Positions 40,236 to 52,382 of a stretch of 64,000 nucleotides of DNA are shown here, in pieces. The stretch comes from a virus. Made by a program: the position numbers and the translations under genes. Every line of letters starts with the position of its first letter. The first letter of the stretch is position 1. The stretch lies in IMG/VR virus record IMGVR_UViG_3300027969_000043, positions 96,001-160,000 of that record; one strand, given 5' to 3'. The notes beneath the pieces are model-generated. The model worked only from the letters and a program-made list of their open reading frames with translations. It made no database searches and was not told where the DNA came from.

Positions 40236-41915
40236 TTACTTTTTTCTACCTTGACAATGCGCCTTTTGGCTAAATCCCTTTGGGTTATTACAATCTATGC
40301 TTTTTTTATATTTTGCTGACCACTTTTCTTTTAGTGCTTCCATATCAACAGATTCATCTGTACTATTTCCCCAGTTGGCAGCGCCAGCTTTTCTACACTT
40401 AACCAAAGCCCCAGAAGCATAAGCCGATGGCCATACATCATATCTAGCTCTTACTTTATGGTAACAAGCATCTTTTTTTGTTTTCTTTTTTTTCTTTTTA
40501 CCCTCTTCTACTACTTCATATATTTCATATTCATCTAAGATGTCATTAGAACCTTCTTGGAACATGTTATTTTTTTTAATGTTTTTTAATATAAATGCAT
40601 TTTCAAACATTTTGTTATAATCAACTTCTTCTTCATATGATTCAACATCAACACCTAAATTTTTTAATTTATCTAAGATATAATACATTTCCTCATTATC
40701 AGAAATTTCGGACTGAACGTCTTGTATGAATTCTTCTCGATTTATTTTATCACTAAAAGAAACCAATCTAGTTAAAATATGTAAAATTTTAGTATTTTCT
40801 TGTTTAAGATTATCATCATATATTTTGATTAACATCTTAGATTTCCAATCATCCAACGACATTTCGGCTAACATTGACGATTTCTCGAATTCATCTTGGT
40901 CAATTTCTCCACTTTTATATTTTTGTGTTATATCTCCTATTTTTTTACCATGCTCACCACTCAATCTTTGAAATTCGGCTTTCCAACCAGTTTTCATTGG
41001 TGTATTATCTTTTAATTTTTCAAAAGTATTTGGGTTAGCCAATTCGTTTACTTTAACGATTTCTTTTTCGTAAATCATTGATTTGAAAATATTATCATTT
41101 AACTTACGATTTTCACTACGAGTTCTATGCCACGTTACGAAAAAAAGTATACTATTTGATTTCCAATCAACTTTAGTTACTGTATAGTTACAATCCCTAT
41201 TTTTGTCGTAATATATATCACCTTCTTGTACCCATAAATCTGCCCATGGTGCCGATTCCCCATCCTCAAATAAATTTTCTGAATCATCAGTTTCTTCAGT
41301 ATCTTTAGTTTCGGTATCAGTTGTTTCACCGTCATCAGTGGTTTCGGTATCCGTAGTTTCTGTGTCAGTTGTTTCGGTATCGGTGTCATCAGTAGTTTCG
41401 GTGTCATCCGTTGATTCTTCATCGCCGTCACCCTTTCCAGAACTTTTTACTTTCTTTATGATATCTTTTTGGTCTTCAGCATCCATCTCACCAGTATGCG
41501 TTGCTGACAATAAAGAATTTACAGCAAATTTTTCTAAATCAAAATCTGGCTGACCTTGGTCTTCATTATATTTTCTAAGAGATTGTCCTAATTTACCTGT
41601 AAGTTGTTCTATGAATTTTTTAGGGTCTGACTCTTCGTCAGCTTCAACACCAGCATCAAACGGTTCGTCGTCAAATGGTTTATCACTTGAACCGCTATCA
41701 TCAGTTGCTGTATCATCAGTTGGAGTTTCTTCAGACGATGTATCTGCTTGGTCTTCTGTACCAGCATCATCTGTACTAAAATCTAAATCATCTGTAGGTT
41801 CTTCAGCGGGCGCTGAATCGGTTGGGGGTTCAGCTGGAGCTGGGGCCGCTTTAGCCCCTAGCTTCAACTTGTATTTTACTTCTTCTAATGGAGCTTCAAA
41901 AGACTCAATTAGATT
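40236..41915 (-). CDS. acidic modular head protein, likely the -1 frameshift extension of 41909..42850
   Basis: Frame opens right at the A10 run; no ATG for about 130 codons; C-terminal DACYHKV..WPSAYASGALVKCRK and KWSAKYKKSIDC..KGFSQKAHC modules. Confidence 0.65.
   Translation of the reverse strand, partial: NLIESFEAPLEEVKYKLKLGAKAAPAPAEPPTDSAPAEEPTDDLDFSTDDAGTEDQADTSSEETPTDDTATDDSGSSDKPFDDEPFDAGVEADEESDPKKFIEQLTGKLGQSLRKYNEDQGQPDFDLEKFAVNSLLSATHTGEMDAEDQKDIIKKVKSSGKGDGDEESTDDTETTDDTDTETTDTETTDTETTDDGETTDTETKDTEETDDSENLFEDGESAPWADLWVQEGDIYYDKNRDCNYTVTKVDWKSNSILFFVTWHRTRSENRKLNDNIFKSMIYEKEIVKVNELANPNTFEKLKDNTPMKTGWKAEFQRLSGEHGKKIGDITQKYKSGEIDQDEFEKSSMLAEMSLDDWKSKMLIKIYDDNLKQENTKILHILTRLVSFSDKINREEFIQDVQSEISDNEEMYYILDKLKNLGVDVESYEEEVDYNKMFENAFILKNIKKNNMFQEGSNDILDEYEIYEVVEEGKKKKKKTKKDACYHKVRARYDVWPSAYASGALVKCRKAGAANWGNSTDESVDMEALKEKWSAKYKKSIDCNNPKGFSQKAHCQGRKK
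41330..41415 (-). repeat. imperfect tandem repeat (about 15 nt) encoding TDTET/TDDTET
   Basis: Protein segment TDDTETTDDTDTETTDTETTDTETTDDGET; boundaries approximate. Confidence 0.6.
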
Positions 41916-41923
41916 TTTTTTTT
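41884..41923 (-). other. candidate -1 frameshift site: A_AAA_AAA slippery run plus 3' stem-loop
   Basis: AGT-A10-TCTAAT-T-GAG-T-CTT-TTG-AAG-CTC-C-ATTAGA on the minus strand. Confidence 0.6.
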
Positions 41924-42850
41924 ACTTCTAGACTCTTGTAACTCATCAATCATCTCATCCATCATACCCATTGCTCTTTCGATTGATAATTTACCTTCAT
42001 TTTTTTTATTCATTTTACCAGCTCTTAAAGCAGCTAAATCATCAGCGCCAATCTCATCAGGGTCACCAGCTAATTTAGCAATCTTTTCTTGTGCTGGGCT
42101 TAAGTCTTTTTCCATCATTCCATGAACAGCAGCCATTTCTGGCATTAAATCTTCATCAACCCCATGAACATCAACCCAATCATCACTCATACCTTCATTT
42201 TTTTCAAATGTTTCTGGGTCACGGTCTTGTTTATTAGCTGTAGCGTAATAAACTTTTTCACCCTTCTCGTCACCGTATTGTTTTTTCATGCTACCCATAG
42301 CTGGTTTGTCATACTCTTCCATTCCACCACCCATACCATAGGCTGAACCACCACATTCTAAACACATGCCCTCCATTGTCTGCGCTCCGCAACATTCGCT
42401 TGTCATATGACCTTCCATATTACCCTCTGCTTTAAAACCAGAACCTGACATTGATTCAAAAGCTGCATAATCTTCAGTTAAAAGTTTATCATCCAAGAAA
42501 ACATTAACCTGTCCAGATTTACCATAAGCCTCGTTAAGGCTATGAAACTTAAGATTTAAGTGCTTTAGAGCTTTAGCATAAGAAGGATATACCTCTTGTT
42601 TCTTATTTTGAAGACCACCCATGTATTGGAAATCTTCAACAACAAGATTGTTTTGCTTTTTAGTTATTTTAATATAATATTCGTGATTTTCTCTTACGAT
42701 ACCGTAAACATTACCATCTGGTCCTTTTTTTGTTAATTCAACAACCGATGTTTTTTTGTTTTCATTAATAGGCTTAATACCCATCAACTCTTTCATGCGC
42801 TCGGTTACTTGATAACCTTTAAGCCCAACTGGATTTATTTTTTCGTTCAT
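41909..42850 (-). CDS. hypothetical prohead core protein (short product ends ...SKKKI)
   Basis: INE/LNE/LTE sites; SECCGA..CLEC; MKKQYGDEKGEKVYYATANK; ATATTTAT at 42866-42873. Confidence 0.7.
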   Translation of the reverse strand: MNEKINPVGLKGYQVTERMKELMGIKPINENKKTSVVELTKKGPDGNVYGIVRENHEYYIKITKKQNNLVVEDFQYMGGLQNKKQEVYPSYAKALKHLNLKFHSLNEAYGKSGQVNVFLDDKLLTEDYAAFESMSGSGFKAEGNMEGHMTSECCGAQTMEGMCLECGGSAYGMGGGMEEYDKPAMGSMKKQYGDEKGEKVYYATANKQDRDPETFEKNEGMSDDWVDVHGVDEDLMPEMAAVHGMMEKDLSPAQEKIAKLAGDPDEIGADDLAALRAGKMNKKNEGKLSIERAMGMMDEMIDELQESRSKKKI

Positions 42851-42880
42851 AATTTTATTTATTTAATAAATATCTTAATT

Positions 42881-50153: not shown

Positions 50154-51239
50154 TTATTTAATGTAAAATTCACCATTTTTCATTAACCACTTATGAAAAT
50201 CAACATCTCCGTTCTCTAATGGGGAGATAATATATTCAGTAAATATTTCACTTTCATAGTTACCTATTATACCCTGATGAATTTTATTAATAATATCGTT
50301 ATCTTCATTTTCAACATCATTCATAGCATCTAAAAACAATTTGTTAATTTCAGATTCTTCAAATAAATCTTTATCACACAACCAAAAATTATGTATCATA
50401 TATCTATCTAAACTAATTGGCTCAACATAAACAATGTTAATTTGCTGTGCCCATAAATCAATAAAAACATTAGGAAATATGTTTAACCATGTAACAGCAT
50501 AATCATTAACACCATCATTTTTAATACTAAAACCTAAAGATTTTAATTTTTTAAAATATTCAGTAAACCTGTTGTTTTTTTTATTTTCCCAGTTAGAGCT
50601 AAATTTTAGTCTATGTGCTGAGTAATCTACCCCAAACTCCCATTCTATTGATGTTTCATCAATAACTTCATTCATTTCTGGATGAAAAAACTTAATATGA
50701 TTTGAATCGTTAAATACAATACCATATTCTTTCCAATTACCTCTTTGCTCATAACTGTTTTTTTCTAAAATTTCATATTTTGAAAAATCAAAGTCTTTTA
50801 AAAATTTTGATTTTTTTAATTCATCCGCTAAACTTTCACTACTAAATAAAAACATTTCGTATTCAAAAATTTCTTTTTTACTTTTTATAGATAAATTTTT
50901 TGATTTACAATCAAAATTACTACAAGGGGCTACTAACAATTTACCATCCAAATCATATGTCCAAAAATGTACAGGACAAATTAATTTATCTTTTTTAACA
51001 TCTTTTTCGCTTGAAATTAACTTGGCATTTTTATGAAGACAAGAATTATTTAATAAATTATATTTATCTGTTTTTGTTATAATATATCTTTCTGACAAAA
51101 AATCAACAACGTAAAAGTTCCTATCATTAACTAATTGCTTTAAACCTATAAAATTAGAAGGTGAAAAAAAATTTACAATTTCATTATAAAAAATATCATA
51201 ATTTGTAAAATTTTTTTTATTCCAGTTAATCTCAAACAT
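50154..51239 (-). CDS. Rieske non-heme iron oxygenase alpha-subunit-like protein
   Basis: CLH-x18-CPVHFWTYDLDGKL; NWK..DSNHIKFFH (D-x2-H-x4-H); NEDNDII..HQG. Confidence 0.8.
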   Translation of the reverse strand: MFEINWNKKNFTNYDIFYNEIVNFFSPSNFIGLKQLVNDRNFYVVDFLSERYIITKTDKYNLLNNSCLHKNAKLISSEKDVKKDKLICPVHFWTYDLDGKLLVAPCSNFDCKSKNLSIKSKKEIFEYEMFLFSSESLADELKKSKFLKDFDFSKYEILEKNSYEQRGNWKEYGIVFNDSNHIKFFHPEMNEVIDETSIEWEFGVDYSAHRLKFSSNWENKKNNRFTEYFKKLKSLGFSIKNDGVNDYAVTWLNIFPNVFIDLWAQQINIVYVEPISLDRYMIHNFWLCDKDLFEESEINKLFLDAMNDVENEDNDIINKIHQGIIGNYESEIFTEYIISPLENGDVDFHKWLMKNGEFYIK

Positions 51240-51259: not shown

Positions 51260-51736
51260 TCACACCTCCCCAATAAATTCATGGCTAAAACAAATTCTCC
51301 TATTGTCAAAGTAATGTTCTTTATACATGTTTTTTATGGAAACATCTTTTCTAAGTTTTTTATTTTTACTTGTTGCAACCCACAATGGCGAATTTTCTCG
51401 ATAATACCCCATCTTAGGGTGCGCGGTTCTTGAAAAGAATCTAAGACCTTGTTCCACGTGGATTTCACCTATTCCATTAGAAAATCTAACACCCATACCC
51501 ATACCTTGATAATCTGGGAGAATAACCGTCCTATGACTACGCCATGCATCCTTTAGTGTACCACTCGGCATTGCAATACTAGCACAAAACGCAACAATCT
51601 CATCTTCCCATACACCTAAATAACACCTAGCTGCTTTATTTATGTTACCATCTAAATAATGATAGTCTTTAAACATGGGCCAGATATTATGGCTTGTTCG
51701 ATATATCTCGAGATTGATTTTTGGGCGGGCAAAAAA
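51260..51736 (-). CDS. GNAT acetyltransferase domain, likely expressed by -1 frameshift from the upstream ABC ATPase
   Basis: HRTVILPDYQGMGMG; frame open from the slippery site (FARPKINLEIYRTSHNIWPMFKDYHYL); track start is 51676. Confidence 0.75.
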   Translation of the reverse strand, partial: FFARPKINLEIYRTSHNIWPMFKDYHYLDGNINKAARCYLGVWEDEIVAFCASIAMPSGTLKDAWRSHRTVILPDYQGMGMGVRFSNGIGEIHVEQGLRFFSRTAHPKMGYYRENSPLWVATSKNKKLRKDVSIKNMYKEHYFDNRRICFSHEFIGEV

Positions 51737-52329
51737 AAACCCTGATGGAATTCACCAGTATCAGTATCTATAACCCAATCAGGTTCTAACCAATCTAGTA
51801 TATCGCGGTGACATGTAGCTAAAACAATATTGTTTATATCATTATTTTTAACATATTTACTCAAAGACACGCTAGCAGCTTTTGCTACATTCCTATCTAC
51901 AACGCTTGTAAACTCATCAATGACAGCATTTGACTTTAATTTTCTAGCTAAATCAGCTCTAAACTTTTCACCGTTTGATAATACATGATATGGTTTATAC
52001 CAAGAAGGTATTGTATTTAACCCAACGGCACCTAACTTGTTTATTGATTCATCTGGAGATTCAAAATGTGATACGATTGATTTTGTACCATCCCATTCTG
52101 GTGAATCTTCAACACCAAAGTTTTTTAGTAATGTTGACTTACCAGAACCGCTGGAACCAACAATTACACCAATCTTAAATTGTTTTGGAATGTTACTTGG
52201 AAGAATCCAAGGATAAAATTTAGATGTACCGTCAAATATACAATCAAATGCTCTTTCACTGGCTTTGATAAAATCATCTCTATCTACTGTAGAGATTAAA
52301 GGGGTTGAAGTTTTAATTAATTTTTCCAT
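51652..52329 (-). CDS. soluble ABC-family ATPase
   Basis: GSSGSGKST, LSNGEK, AVIDEFTSVVDR, ATCH; no membrane partner gene nearby. Confidence 0.85.
   Translation of the reverse strand: MEKLIKTSTPLISTVDRDDFIKASERAFDCIFDGTSKFYPWILPSNIPKQFKIGVIVGSSGSGKSTLLKNFGVEDSPEWDGTKSIVSHFESPDESINKLGAVGLNTIPSWYKPYHVLSNGEKFRADLARKLKSNAVIDEFTSVVDRNVAKAASVSLSKYVKNNDINNIVLATCHRDILDWLEPDWVIDTDTGEFHQGFFLPAQKSISRYIEQAIISGPCLKTIII
51731..51742 (-). other. candidate -1 frameshift site G_GGU_UUU / U_UUU_UUU
   Basis: Minus strand CAG GGT TTT TTT TTG; the -1 frame is closed by TGA just upstream and open downstream. Confidence 0.65.
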
Positions 52330-52382
52330 CTATGATAAATATAGATATCTACCATACGATGTAAAGTATATAAAATACAATA

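What the first reader, a model, noticed from the sequence alone, without database searches (positions are those of the whole stretch)
51652..51755. Apparent programmed -1 frameshift fusing the ABC ATPase to the GNAT
Seen: the minus strand reads CAG GGT TTT TTT TTG, containing G_GGU_UUU and U_UUU_UUU heptamers. The -1 frame has a TGA just upstream (TGA ATT CCA TCA GGG TTT), then runs open as FARPKINLEIYRTSHNIWPMFKDYHYL into the GNAT. The zero frame continues only a short tail to TAG. Inference: two products are made, a 225-aa ATPase and a fusion of about 356 aa, which would set the ATPase:transferase ratio. Transcriptional slippage on T9 would give the same result.
Basis: partly seen in the sequence, partly recalled or inferred. 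Interest (0 to 1): 0.75.

Follow-up and report, generated by a model that had tools for sequence, protein, structure and literature searches.

The report
Conserved T9 slip site, ATPase-acetyltransferase gene
A run of nine T's splits a giant-phage gene so that one-base slippage makes both a short ATPase and a full ATPase-acetyltransferase fusion; about 60 diverged relatives keep this design, so it is a real programmed signal and not a sequencing error.

Summary
On the minus strand CAG GGT TTT TTT TTG (T9 = 51739-51731) ends the ABC-type ATPase domain. The zero frame runs 28 more codons to TAG 51654-51652 (225 aa). The -1 frame continues without gap into the GNAT domain (356-aa fusion).

It is not an artefact. 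62 of 66 close relatives from independent metagenome contigs have the same -1 break at the same codon. Every frameshifted locus, window included (64; 51 distinct sequences), has the zero-frame stop at the same position. All 55 more distant relatives checked in one scan are in frame, with no slippery run.

Synonymous variation falls to 0.05 of expectation at the slip codons and 0.38 across the 26-codon overlap, against 0.82-1.13 elsewhere. So both products appear to be selected.

The four distinct variants without T9 (A_AAU_UUU, and T8 followed by C) all have a strong hairpin 6 nt downstream. The 46 distinct T9 sequences, this window included, mostly do not.

I therefore read T9 as working mainly by RNA-polymerase slippage, possibly with some ribosomal slipping, and the variants as classical ribosomal -1 frameshifting. 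This parallels dnaX in Thermus versus E. coli. Recoding real: about 0.9. The mechanism at T9 is unresolved.

This scan had already reported the same site on other genomes. I found no paper describing it. A second conserved A10 slip site lies at 41914-41923.

The parts
51652..52329 (-). Zero-frame ORF: ABC-type ATPase (residues 1-199) plus a 26-28 residue alternative tail; the 225-aa short product
   Evidence: Pfam ABC_tran and phrog_11143 positions 40-194. AF2 gives a confident ATPase domain and a disordered tail, pLDDT about 30. Walker A, signature, Walker B and H-loop residues are invariant.
51731..51739 (-). T9 slippery run. It holds the in-register heptamers U_UUU_UUU (51739-51733) and U_UUU_UUG (51736-51730), and is also long enough for RNA-polymerase slippage.
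   Evidence: T9 is kept in 59 of the 64 frameshifted loci while flanking wobble sites vary. Synonymous diversity at the three Phe codons is 0.05 of expectation.
51260..51739 (-). -1 frame continuation that encodes the GNAT acetyltransferase domain (157 codons from 51733 plus stop); with residues 1-199 it forms the 356-aa fusion
   Evidence: phrog_11143 positions 200-351 and phrog_7693 acetyltransferase. tblastn conservation starts at the first residue after the run. AF2 of the in-frame relative L056 gives pLDDT 90.9, and Foldseek finds GNAT chains.
51652..51730 (-). Dual-coded overlap: zero-frame tail and the N-terminal strand and helix of the GNAT in the -1 frame
   Evidence: Synonymous diversity is 0.38 of expectation here against 0.82-1.13 elsewhere, and it recovers right after the zero-frame stop. 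No zero-frame stop occurs in any of the 51 distinct sequences, although that register carries 6.3% stops per codon elsewhere.
51652..51654 (-). Zero-frame stop (TAG), conserved in position
   Evidence: It lies at the same codon in all 64 frameshifted loci (window included). It is kept through different codon pairs: TTA+G = TAG, TTA or CTA+A = TAA, TTG+A = TGA.
51674..51676 (-). ATG in the -1 frame (Met of WPMFKDY); a possible but unlikely independent start of the GNAT
   Evidence: It is ATG in most relatives, GTG in L025 and L026, and absent in L047 (CTG) and L060 (ATC). The Met is not conserved in in-frame relatives. A start here would remove strand beta-1.
51678..51726 (-). Degenerate remnant of the stimulatory hairpin register (arms 51726-51715 and 51689-51678)
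   Evidence: Alignment A1 columns 16-27 pair with 53-64: 67.6% of cells are paired, against 20-41% when the partner is slid. The stem is perfect in L036, L061, L062 and L066 (-18 to -25.5 kcal/mol). In the window, by my reading of its A1 row, 7 of the 10 outer pairs form; MFE is -8.1 and z is -0.34.

Best explanation
The T9 run is a conserved programmed recoding site inside a gene that is ancestrally one ORF (ABC-type ATPase fused to a GNAT acetyltransferase).

Unslipped expression gives a 225-aa ATPase with a short alternative tail that ends at a conserved stop. A one-base slip, equivalent to the -1 frame, gives the 356-aa ATPase-GNAT fusion. Both products are kept by selection.

In genomes with T9, including this window, I think the slip is made mainly by RNA polymerase, which adds one U on the nine-base homopolymer. 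Ribosomal -1 slipping on U_UUU_UUU or U_UUU_UUG may contribute.

In the few relatives that lost T9, the same fusion is made by classical ribosomal -1 frameshifting on a heptamer backed by a hairpin.

Shown here: the conserved break, motif and stop, the overlap constraint, and the hairpin dichotomy. Inferred: which machine slips, the product ratio, and the role of the short form.
For: Family and collinearity
- phrog_11143 (357 positions) matches the ATPase at 40-194 and the -1 frame part at 200-351.
- All 55 distant relatives from the second scan, and those from the first, are in-frame fusions without a slippery run.

Conservation of the break
- 62 of 66 close relatives have the GNAT in the -1 frame at the same codon (ATPase identity 66-83%, GNAT 53-75%).
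- GG-T9-G is invariant in nearly all of them while neighbouring wobble sites vary.
- The frameshifted clade has 100% support on the tree.
- Upstream gene order is conserved, so the loci are orthologous.
- The top 120 database clusters of similar length are 224-254 aa (all but three 224-229) and cover the tail.

Evidence that both products are made
- The zero-frame stop is at the same codon in all frameshifted loci (64 with the window), through TAG, TAA or TGA.
- Synonymous diversity is 0.05 of expectation at the slip codons and 0.38 in the overlap, against 0.82-1.13 elsewhere.
- No stable conserved RNA structure explains this.

Evidence that the fusion is needed
- The AF2 model of the in-frame relative (pLDDT 90.9) places strand 207-212, which lies between the slip site and the ATG, as GNAT beta-1.

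Mechanism
- All four distinct non-T9 variants have a hairpin of -18 to -25.5 kcal/mol that starts 6 nt after the heptamer, with one compensatory pair. These are A_AAU_UUU in L061, L062 and L066, and T8C in L036.
- The 46 distinct T9 sequences average -7.8 kcal/mol, and none is below -15.9.
- Nine A or T is the run length at which bacterial RNA polymerase slips efficiently in vivo, as used in Thermus dnaX and Shigella mxiE (PMC5009743).
- A second -1 junction in this window sits on a conserved A9-A11 run in 64 of 65 distinct relatives.

Not an assembly error
- T9, T10 and A10 runs lie inside intact long ORFs of the same contig.
Against: - No reads, transcripts or peptides were available, so no product has been seen.
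- T9 always contains an in-register heptamer, so sequence alone cannot separate the two mechanisms.
- The 8th and 9th T are also fixed by the two overlapping codings (Leu in frame 0, Phe in frame -1). T9 conservation therefore does not by itself need RNA-polymerase slippage.
- T9 sequences keep a weak version of the hairpin register (67.6% paired), and one T9 locus (L052) has the full stem. This fits some ribosomal contribution.
- The phage's own RNA polymerase usage is unknown.
- The contig does not avoid runs of 9 or more in coding DNA. I counted 16 against about 13 expected from base composition (my estimate). Slippage at such runs may therefore be mild.
- The zero-frame tail is predicted disordered, so its function is unclear.
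Confidence: 0.5

Rival explanations
1. Same programmed recoding and the same two products, but the slip at T9 is made mainly by the ribosome. This would be a -1 frameshift on the tandem heptamers U_UUU_UUU and U_UUU_UUG without a strong stimulator, with RNA-polymerase slippage minor.
For: - The heptamer is in register in every frameshifted sequence.
- Relatives at the very same codon use a canonical A_AAU_UUU heptamer with a hairpin at 6 nt. That can only be ribosomal, so the ribosome of these hosts does shift here.
- T9 sequences retain a partial stem in the same register, and L052 (T9) has a full one.
- T9 length is explained by dual coding alone.
Against: - A structure-free U-rich heptamer is expected to shift poorly (my recollection of reporter work, not checked here). 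Yet the fusion is the ancestral full enzyme.
- The hairpin is strong in all four non-T9 variants and absent in nearly all T9 sequences. Something else appears to do the work at T9.
- A second junction in the same phage family keeps A9-A11, far longer than a heptamer.
Confidence: 0.37
2. No fusion is made. The ATPase (225 aa) and a 138-aa GNAT that starts at ATG 51676 are separate proteins, and the T9 run merely marks an old split of the gene.
For: An ATG or GTG is present at this position in most frameshifted relatives. Bacteroidota-type hosts do not need a Shine-Dalgarno sequence (general knowledge), so an internal start cannot be excluded from sequence.
Against: - The 20 codons between the run and the ATG are conserved as protein in the -1 frame and match the in-frame relatives (RP.I...IY).
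- In the AF2 model they form GNAT strand beta-1.
- The ATG is missing in L047 and L060.
- The slip motif would have no reason to be invariant or to be replaced by a heptamer plus hairpin.
- In most relatives the -1 frame opens only a few codons before the run.
Confidence: 0.06
3. Artefact or decay: an assembly error (true T10), a pseudogene, or DNA-level phase variation between T9 and T10 in the phage population.
For: Three related contigs (L056, L063, L064) have T10 and an in-frame fusion. Long homopolymers are error-prone and mutable.
Against: - About 60 independent assemblies from different samples share T9 and the break.
- Both halves stay under purifying selection.
- Other T9, T10 and A10 runs in this contig sit inside intact ORFs of up to 7.1 kb.
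- The non-T9 variants keep the break with a heptamer and hairpin.
- DNA-level switching is likely too rare to supply the fusion in each infection (inference).
Confidence: 0.04

Closest known systems
dnaX tau/gamma (E. coli: ribosomal -1 frameshift at A_AAA_AAG with hairpin; Thermus thermophilus: RNA-polymerase slippage on a nine-base homopolymer run); review PMC5009743
   Same: One gene gives a full-length and a C-terminally truncated ATPase-containing product through a one-base slip. Different lineages reach the same outcome with a homopolymer of nine or with a heptamer plus hairpin.
   Different: Here the slipped product is the long form in the T9 genomes, and the short form carries a conserved 26-28 residue alternative tail. 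The protein is an ABC-ATPase-GNAT enzyme of a phage, not a clamp-loader subunit. Both solutions occur within one clade of orthologous phage genes.
Shigella flexneri mxiE (transcriptional slippage on a T run joins two ORFs into an extended product); cited in PMC5009743
   Same: A homopolymer T run on the coding strand lies at the junction of two overlapping ORFs, and one added U gives the extended protein.
   Different: mxiE is a bacterial regulator. No heptamer-plus-hairpin alternatives or dual-coded tail are described for it, as far as I read.
Phage tail assembly chaperone G/GT -1 frameshift (lambda and most long-tailed phages)
   Same: A conserved programmed -1 shift in phages that makes a short and an extended protein at a fixed ratio (PMC10885494).
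   Different: The gene class is different: an enzyme, not a chaperone. The zero-frame stop lies 28 codons downstream with a conserved tail, and the slip site is a homopolymer.
ABC-ATPase-GNAT fusion family (phrog_11143; JGI name 'ABC-type ATPase with predicted acetyltransferase domain'), predicted by Iyer et al. to acylate a DNA base, e.g. Tenacibaculum phage pT24 (PMC7824862)
   Same: Both halves match the family collinearly, and the catalytic motifs of both domains are conserved.
   Different: In this clade of giant phages the fusion is interrupted by a recoding site. No paper I found mentions that.

Membership tests
ABC-ATPase-GNAT fusion family (phrog_11143) | Collinear match of both domains to one family profile | tested here: met
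   ATPase residues 48-197 match profile positions 40-194 (E 6.5e-63). The -1 frame part, residues 5-158, matches 200-351 (E 5.8e-39).
ABC-ATPase-GNAT fusion family (phrog_11143) | ABC ATPase motifs (Walker A, signature LSGGQ-like, Walker B D-E, H-loop) | tested here: met
   GSSGSGKST, LSNGEKFR, IDEF and TCH are invariant in alignments A2 and A3. Pfam ABC_tran scores 27.1 bits against a cut-off of 25. Foldseek finds MalK, Wzt and MetN nucleotide-binding domains.
ABC-ATPase-GNAT fusion family (phrog_11143) | GNAT fold with acetyl-CoA loop (Q/R-x-x-G-x-G/A) | tested here: met
   Q275, G276 and G278 are invariant. The window has YQGMGMG. The AF2 model shows the beta1-alpha-beta2-4-alpha3-beta5-alpha4-beta6-7 order. 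Foldseek finds GNAT chains 1y9k, 2ae6 and 4e2a. Pfam itself gives no GNAT hit for the window's part.
ABC-ATPase-GNAT fusion family (phrog_11143) | Acyl transfer to a DNA base (the predicted function) | not testable with these tools
   This is only a published prediction (PMC7824862).
Canonical -1 programmed ribosomal frameshift | X_XXY_YYZ heptamer in the zero-frame register | tested here: met
   U_UUU_UUU at 51739-51733 and U_UUU_UUG at 51736-51730. Each of the 51 distinct frameshifted sequences has T9, T8 or A_AAU_UUU at the same codon position, so each holds an in-register heptamer.
Canonical -1 programmed ribosomal frameshift | Stimulatory structure 5-9 nt downstream | tested here: not met
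   Window: MFE -8.1 to -9.6 kcal/mol, z -0.34. The RNAalifold consensus is -0.4 kcal/mol. The mean MFE profile shows no dip downstream of the site. The feature is met only in the relatives L036, L061, L062 and L066 (-18 to -25.5 kcal/mol, 6-nt spacer).
Canonical -1 programmed ribosomal frameshift | Trans-frame protein product | not testable with these tools
   This needs mass spectrometry or a reporter assay.
Programmed transcriptional slippage (Thermus dnaX, Shigella mxiE type) | Homopolymer of at least 9 A or T at the junction of the two frames | tested here: met
   T9 is present in the window and in 59 of the 64 frameshifted loci. The threshold of nine comes from PMC5009743.
Programmed transcriptional slippage (Thermus dnaX, Shigella mxiE type) | Heterogeneous transcripts (U9 and U10) | not testable with these tools
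   No transcript data are held.
Two-isoform recoding with both products functional | Selection on the zero-frame extension and its stop | tested here: met
   The stop position is fixed through three stop codons. The overlap has 0.38 of the expected synonymous diversity. Caveat: the tail is predicted disordered.

The most novel reading that the evidence does not exclude
One clade of giant phages switches between two different recoding machines at the same codon of the same gene. The T9 genomes would use RNA-polymerase slippage, and the derived lineages ribosomal -1 frameshifting on a heptamer plus hairpin. Throughout, a dual-coded 26-28 residue tail is kept on the short ATPase. The same phages use a second homopolymer junction (A10 at 41914-41923). 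Programmed polymerase slippage would then be a general gene-expression device of this phage family, and the short ATPase isoform a regulatory partner of the DNA-modifying fusion enzyme.
Probability: 0.4. Interest if true: 0.7.

Novelty: new member of a known kind. Interest (0 to 1): 0.55.

Why it matters
Gene callers split this enzyme into an 'ABC ATPase' and an orphan acetyltransferase in well over a hundred protein clusters (top 120) and about 60 viral contigs. Annotation of these giant phages is therefore systematically wrong at this locus.

The site adds a well-supported recoding case outside the usual phage tail-chaperone genes. It lies in an enzyme family predicted to modify DNA bases.

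The natural series gives a ready-made comparative experiment on how polymerase slippage and ribosomal frameshifting substitute for each other. The series runs: T9 without hairpin, T8 or A_AAU_UUU with hairpin, and T10 in frame.

The conserved short isoform suggests that an ATPase-only partner matters for the enzyme, perhaps through mixed dimers. That is testable.

Tried and rejected
- **Conserved RNA structure downstream of T9.** RNAalifold on 36 sequences gave -0.4 kcal/mol and no covarying pair. A sliding MFE profile over 53 sequences showed no dip after the site. The window's own 126-nt fold (-29.2 kcal/mol, z -3.3) is not conserved, so I dropped it.
- **Conserved ABC-ATPase/GNAT/Rieske cassette.** The Rieske oxygenase gene downstream is found in none of 63 related loci. 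It is a local insertion.
- **Close relatives among cultured phages.** Megablast of 24 kb found nothing relevant. The best protein matches among deposited phages are 51% identical (Aeromonas PX29 group), so no cultured host system was identified.
- **Homopolymer assembly error.** Rejected.
- **AF2 of the short form.** This was run to see whether the tail docks on the ATPase. The tail came out disordered, which does not say what it does.
- **Literature.** Five full-text searches ran; four looked for a frameshift in this gene family, and the review PMC5009743 was checked only for dnaX and mxiE terms. None described this frameshift. Two further searches failed on term format.
- **Complex prediction.** I did not run a dimer prediction of the ATPase. 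ABC dimers would pass by likeness to solved structures and would not change my odds.
- **Flawed first pass on the A10 site.** One search used a wrong-frame query for the downstream ORF. It was redone correctly.

Full report
**What is there**

The window lies in a 168,871-bp viral contig of about 32% G+C, estimated to be half complete. Earlier notes of this scan call it an uncultivated freshwater giant phage of Bacteroidota. I did not check that.

On the minus strand the ORF 52329-51652 encodes a 225-aa protein with ABC-ATPase motifs. At codons 197-200 it reads GGT TTT TTT TTG, so T9 is 51739-51731. The zero frame goes on for 26 more codons (tail residues 200-225) to TAG 51654-51652.

The -1 frame is closed by TGA (51754-51752) four codons before the run. 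From the run it reads FFFARPKINLEIYRTSHNIWPMFKDYHYL... to the stop at 51262-51260. A shift after Phe199 gives a protein of 356 aa.

**The two ORFs are halves of one gene**

The profile phrog_11143 (357 positions) matches the ATPase at positions 40-194 and the -1 frame part at positions 200-351. JGI names relatives 'ABC-type ATPase with predicted acetyltransferase domain'. More distant relatives, 52-63% identical, are single in-frame ORFs with no slippery run at the joint (all 55 of the second scan).

The AF2 model of a natural in-frame relative (L056, 77% identical in the ATPase) is confident (pLDDT 90.9, pTM 0.84). It shows an ABC nucleotide-binding domain followed by a complete GNAT fold. 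Foldseek returns MalK, Wzt and MetN for the first half and GNAT acetyltransferases for the second.

Iyer and co-workers predicted that this ABC-ATPase-GNAT family puts an acyl group on a DNA base, and named Tenacibaculum phage pT24 (PMC7824862). pT24 is among my tblastn hits.

**The break is conserved, so it is not an error**

A scan of IMG/VR with the ATPase gave 80 loci.
- Of 66 close relatives (ATPase 66-83% identical, GNAT 53-75%), 62 have the GNAT in the -1 frame at the same codon.
- They come from different samples and from contigs of up to 368 kb.
- They share the upstream gene order (a 68-aa protein, an RNase H-like protein, an LRR protein), so the loci are orthologous.
- GG-T9-G is invariant in nearly all, while third-codon positions around it vary freely.
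- On a tree the frameshifted sequences form one clade with full support and a long stem. The in-frame sequences without a slippery run lie outside it (quick IQ-TREE, careful search not finished).
- In the large protein database the top 120 clusters of similar length are 224-254 aa (all but three 224-229) and cover the query fully, tail included.
- Within this contig, other T9, T10 and A10 runs sit inside intact ORFs of up to 7.1 kb.

**Both products appear to be selected**

- In all 64 frameshifted loci (window included; 51 distinct sequences) the zero-frame stop is exactly 30 codons after residue 195.
- The stop is built from the -1 frame Leu codon plus the first base of the next codon. It survives through TTA+G (TAG), TTA or CTA+A (TAA) and TTG+A (TGA). 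Ser after this Leu is always AGY and Arg always AGR, which are the choices that keep a stop.
- The 28 zero-frame codons before it never contain a stop. The same register elsewhere in the gene carries 6.3% stops per codon, which gives P = 0.16 for one sequence to be open.
- Synonymous differences between sequences, corrected for amino-acid type, are 0.05 of expectation at the three slip-site Phe codons and 0.38 over the 26 overlap codons. Every other block of either domain gives 0.82-1.13, and the value returns to 0.88 immediately after the zero-frame stop.
- A conserved RNA structure does not explain this. Dual coding is the best reading.
- AF2 predicts the tail to be disordered, so what it does is open.

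**The GNAT does not simply start at ATG 51676**

- The 20 codons between the run and that ATG are conserved as protein in the -1 frame and align with the in-frame relatives (RP.I...IY).
- In the model they form strand beta-1 and the start of the first helix of the GNAT.
- The ATG is replaced by CTG in L047 and ATC in L060.
- The Met is not conserved in in-frame relatives.

Five frameshifted loci (four distinct sequences) lack T9.
- L061, L062 and L066 (with L067, a duplicate of L066 at this site) read GGA AAT TTT AC. That is the canonical heptamer A_AAU_UUU at exactly the same codon register.
- L036 reads GGT TTT TTT TCA, that is T8 followed by C.

All four distinct sequences have a long hairpin that begins 6 nt after the heptamer. 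Its energy is -18 to -25.5 kcal/mol and z is -3.8 to -5.5. One pair changes in a compensatory way (GACC...GGUC against GGCC...GGCC). This is the textbook signal for ribosomal -1 frameshifting. Polymerase slippage cannot act on A3T4.

By contrast, the 46 distinct T9 sequences average -7.8 kcal/mol over the same stretch (range -2.7 to -15.9). The window gives -8.1 (z -0.34), and only L052 has the full stem. A weak remnant of the same pairing register is still visible across the whole alignment: 67.6% of cells are paired, against 20-41% in slid registers.

Nine A or T is the length at which bacterial RNA polymerase slips efficiently in vivo. Thermus dnaX and Shigella mxiE use this (PMC5009743).

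The simplest reading is that T9 needs no hairpin because the polymerase makes the shifted message, and that a hairpin becomes necessary once the run is shorter. I put about 0.5 on polymerase slippage being dominant at T9 and about 0.37 on the ribosome. The reasons for caution are these:
- T9 always contains in-register heptamers.
- Its length is also fixed by the two codings.
- A partial stem persists.

Three loci have T10 and thus an in-frame fusion. They sit in two separate places inside the T9 clade. In L063 and L064 the T10 is followed by TAA in the -1 frame. There a slip would give the short form instead, which is the dnaX layout.

**A second site supports the habit**

At 41914-41923 (minus strand) an A10 run lies two codons before the stop of a 317-aa ORF. 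The -1 frame opens at the run and continues as a 561-aa ORF.

In 64 of 65 distinct related loci the downstream ORF is again in the -1 frame, overlaps by 13-70 nt, and the overlap holds an A9-A11 run, mostly A10. Runs this long, kept this well, are more than a ribosomal heptamer needs.

**Comparison and novelty**

The closest known system in logic is dnaX: one gene, a full and a truncated ATPase-containing product, with a heptamer plus hairpin in E. coli and a nine-base run in Thermus. mxiE is the closest in layout (a homopolymer T run joining two ORFs into an extended protein).

The gene family itself is known. The recoding within it is not described in any paper I could find. Earlier reports of this scan found the same T9 site on other genomes and reached similar conclusions. 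One of them prompted my hairpin test. I had seen the A_AAU_UUU variants before reading it.

I class this as a new member of a known kind of recoding. Its unusually clean natural series bears on mechanism.

**Limits**

- Nothing here shows a transcript or a protein.
- The product ratio, the role of the short form and the biochemical function are inferences.
- The host assignment is taken from unchecked notes.

Noticed in passing
window 41914-41923 (minus strand), ORFs 41909-42862(-) and 40236-41921(-): A second candidate programmed slip site. An A10 run lies two codons before the stop of a 317-aa ORF, and the -1 frame opens at the run and continues as a 561-aa ORF. In 64 of 65 distinct related loci (L151-L230) the same -1 arrangement holds, with an A9-A11 run in the 13-70 nt overlap. 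Four loci also carry A_AAA_AAG 9 nt before the stop. The function of both ORFs is unknown.
   Followed up: partly
window 50154-51239 (minus strand): The Rieske/ring-hydroxylating oxygenase gene just downstream of the GNAT (Pfam Rieske and Ring_hydroxyl_A) is absent from the 3-kb flanks of all 63 related frameshifted loci. It is a local insertion and not a conserved partner of the ATPase-GNAT gene.
   Followed up: yes
proteins P0002-P0013: Close homologs of the ATPase (62-82% identical) are 575-711 aa long because they carry an intein with a homing endonuclease (PF05204, PF05203, PF14528). P0013 (711 aa) also has GNAT domains, so it is an in-frame fusion with an intein.
   Followed up: no
L063:3586-3605 and L064 (same sequence): These two contigs (368 kb and 274 kb) have T10 followed by AAAAG. 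The fusion is in frame and the -1 frame hits TAA directly after the run, so a slip would make the short ATPase. This is the reverse of the T9 layout, like E. coli dnaX. The old tail frame is still open, with its stop in place.
   Followed up: partly
whole contig G000 (window = 96001-160000): There are 16 homopolymer runs of 9 or more A or T in 169 kb, close to the roughly 13 I estimate from base composition. Several lie inside long intact ORFs, so such runs are not avoided in coding DNA of this phage.
   Followed up: partly
window 52330-52345 and relatives: In the window the ATPase ORF starts at ATG 52329. In most relatives the aligned codon is Ile and the start is an ATG four codons upstream, which explains the 229-aa forms in the database.
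   Followed up: yes
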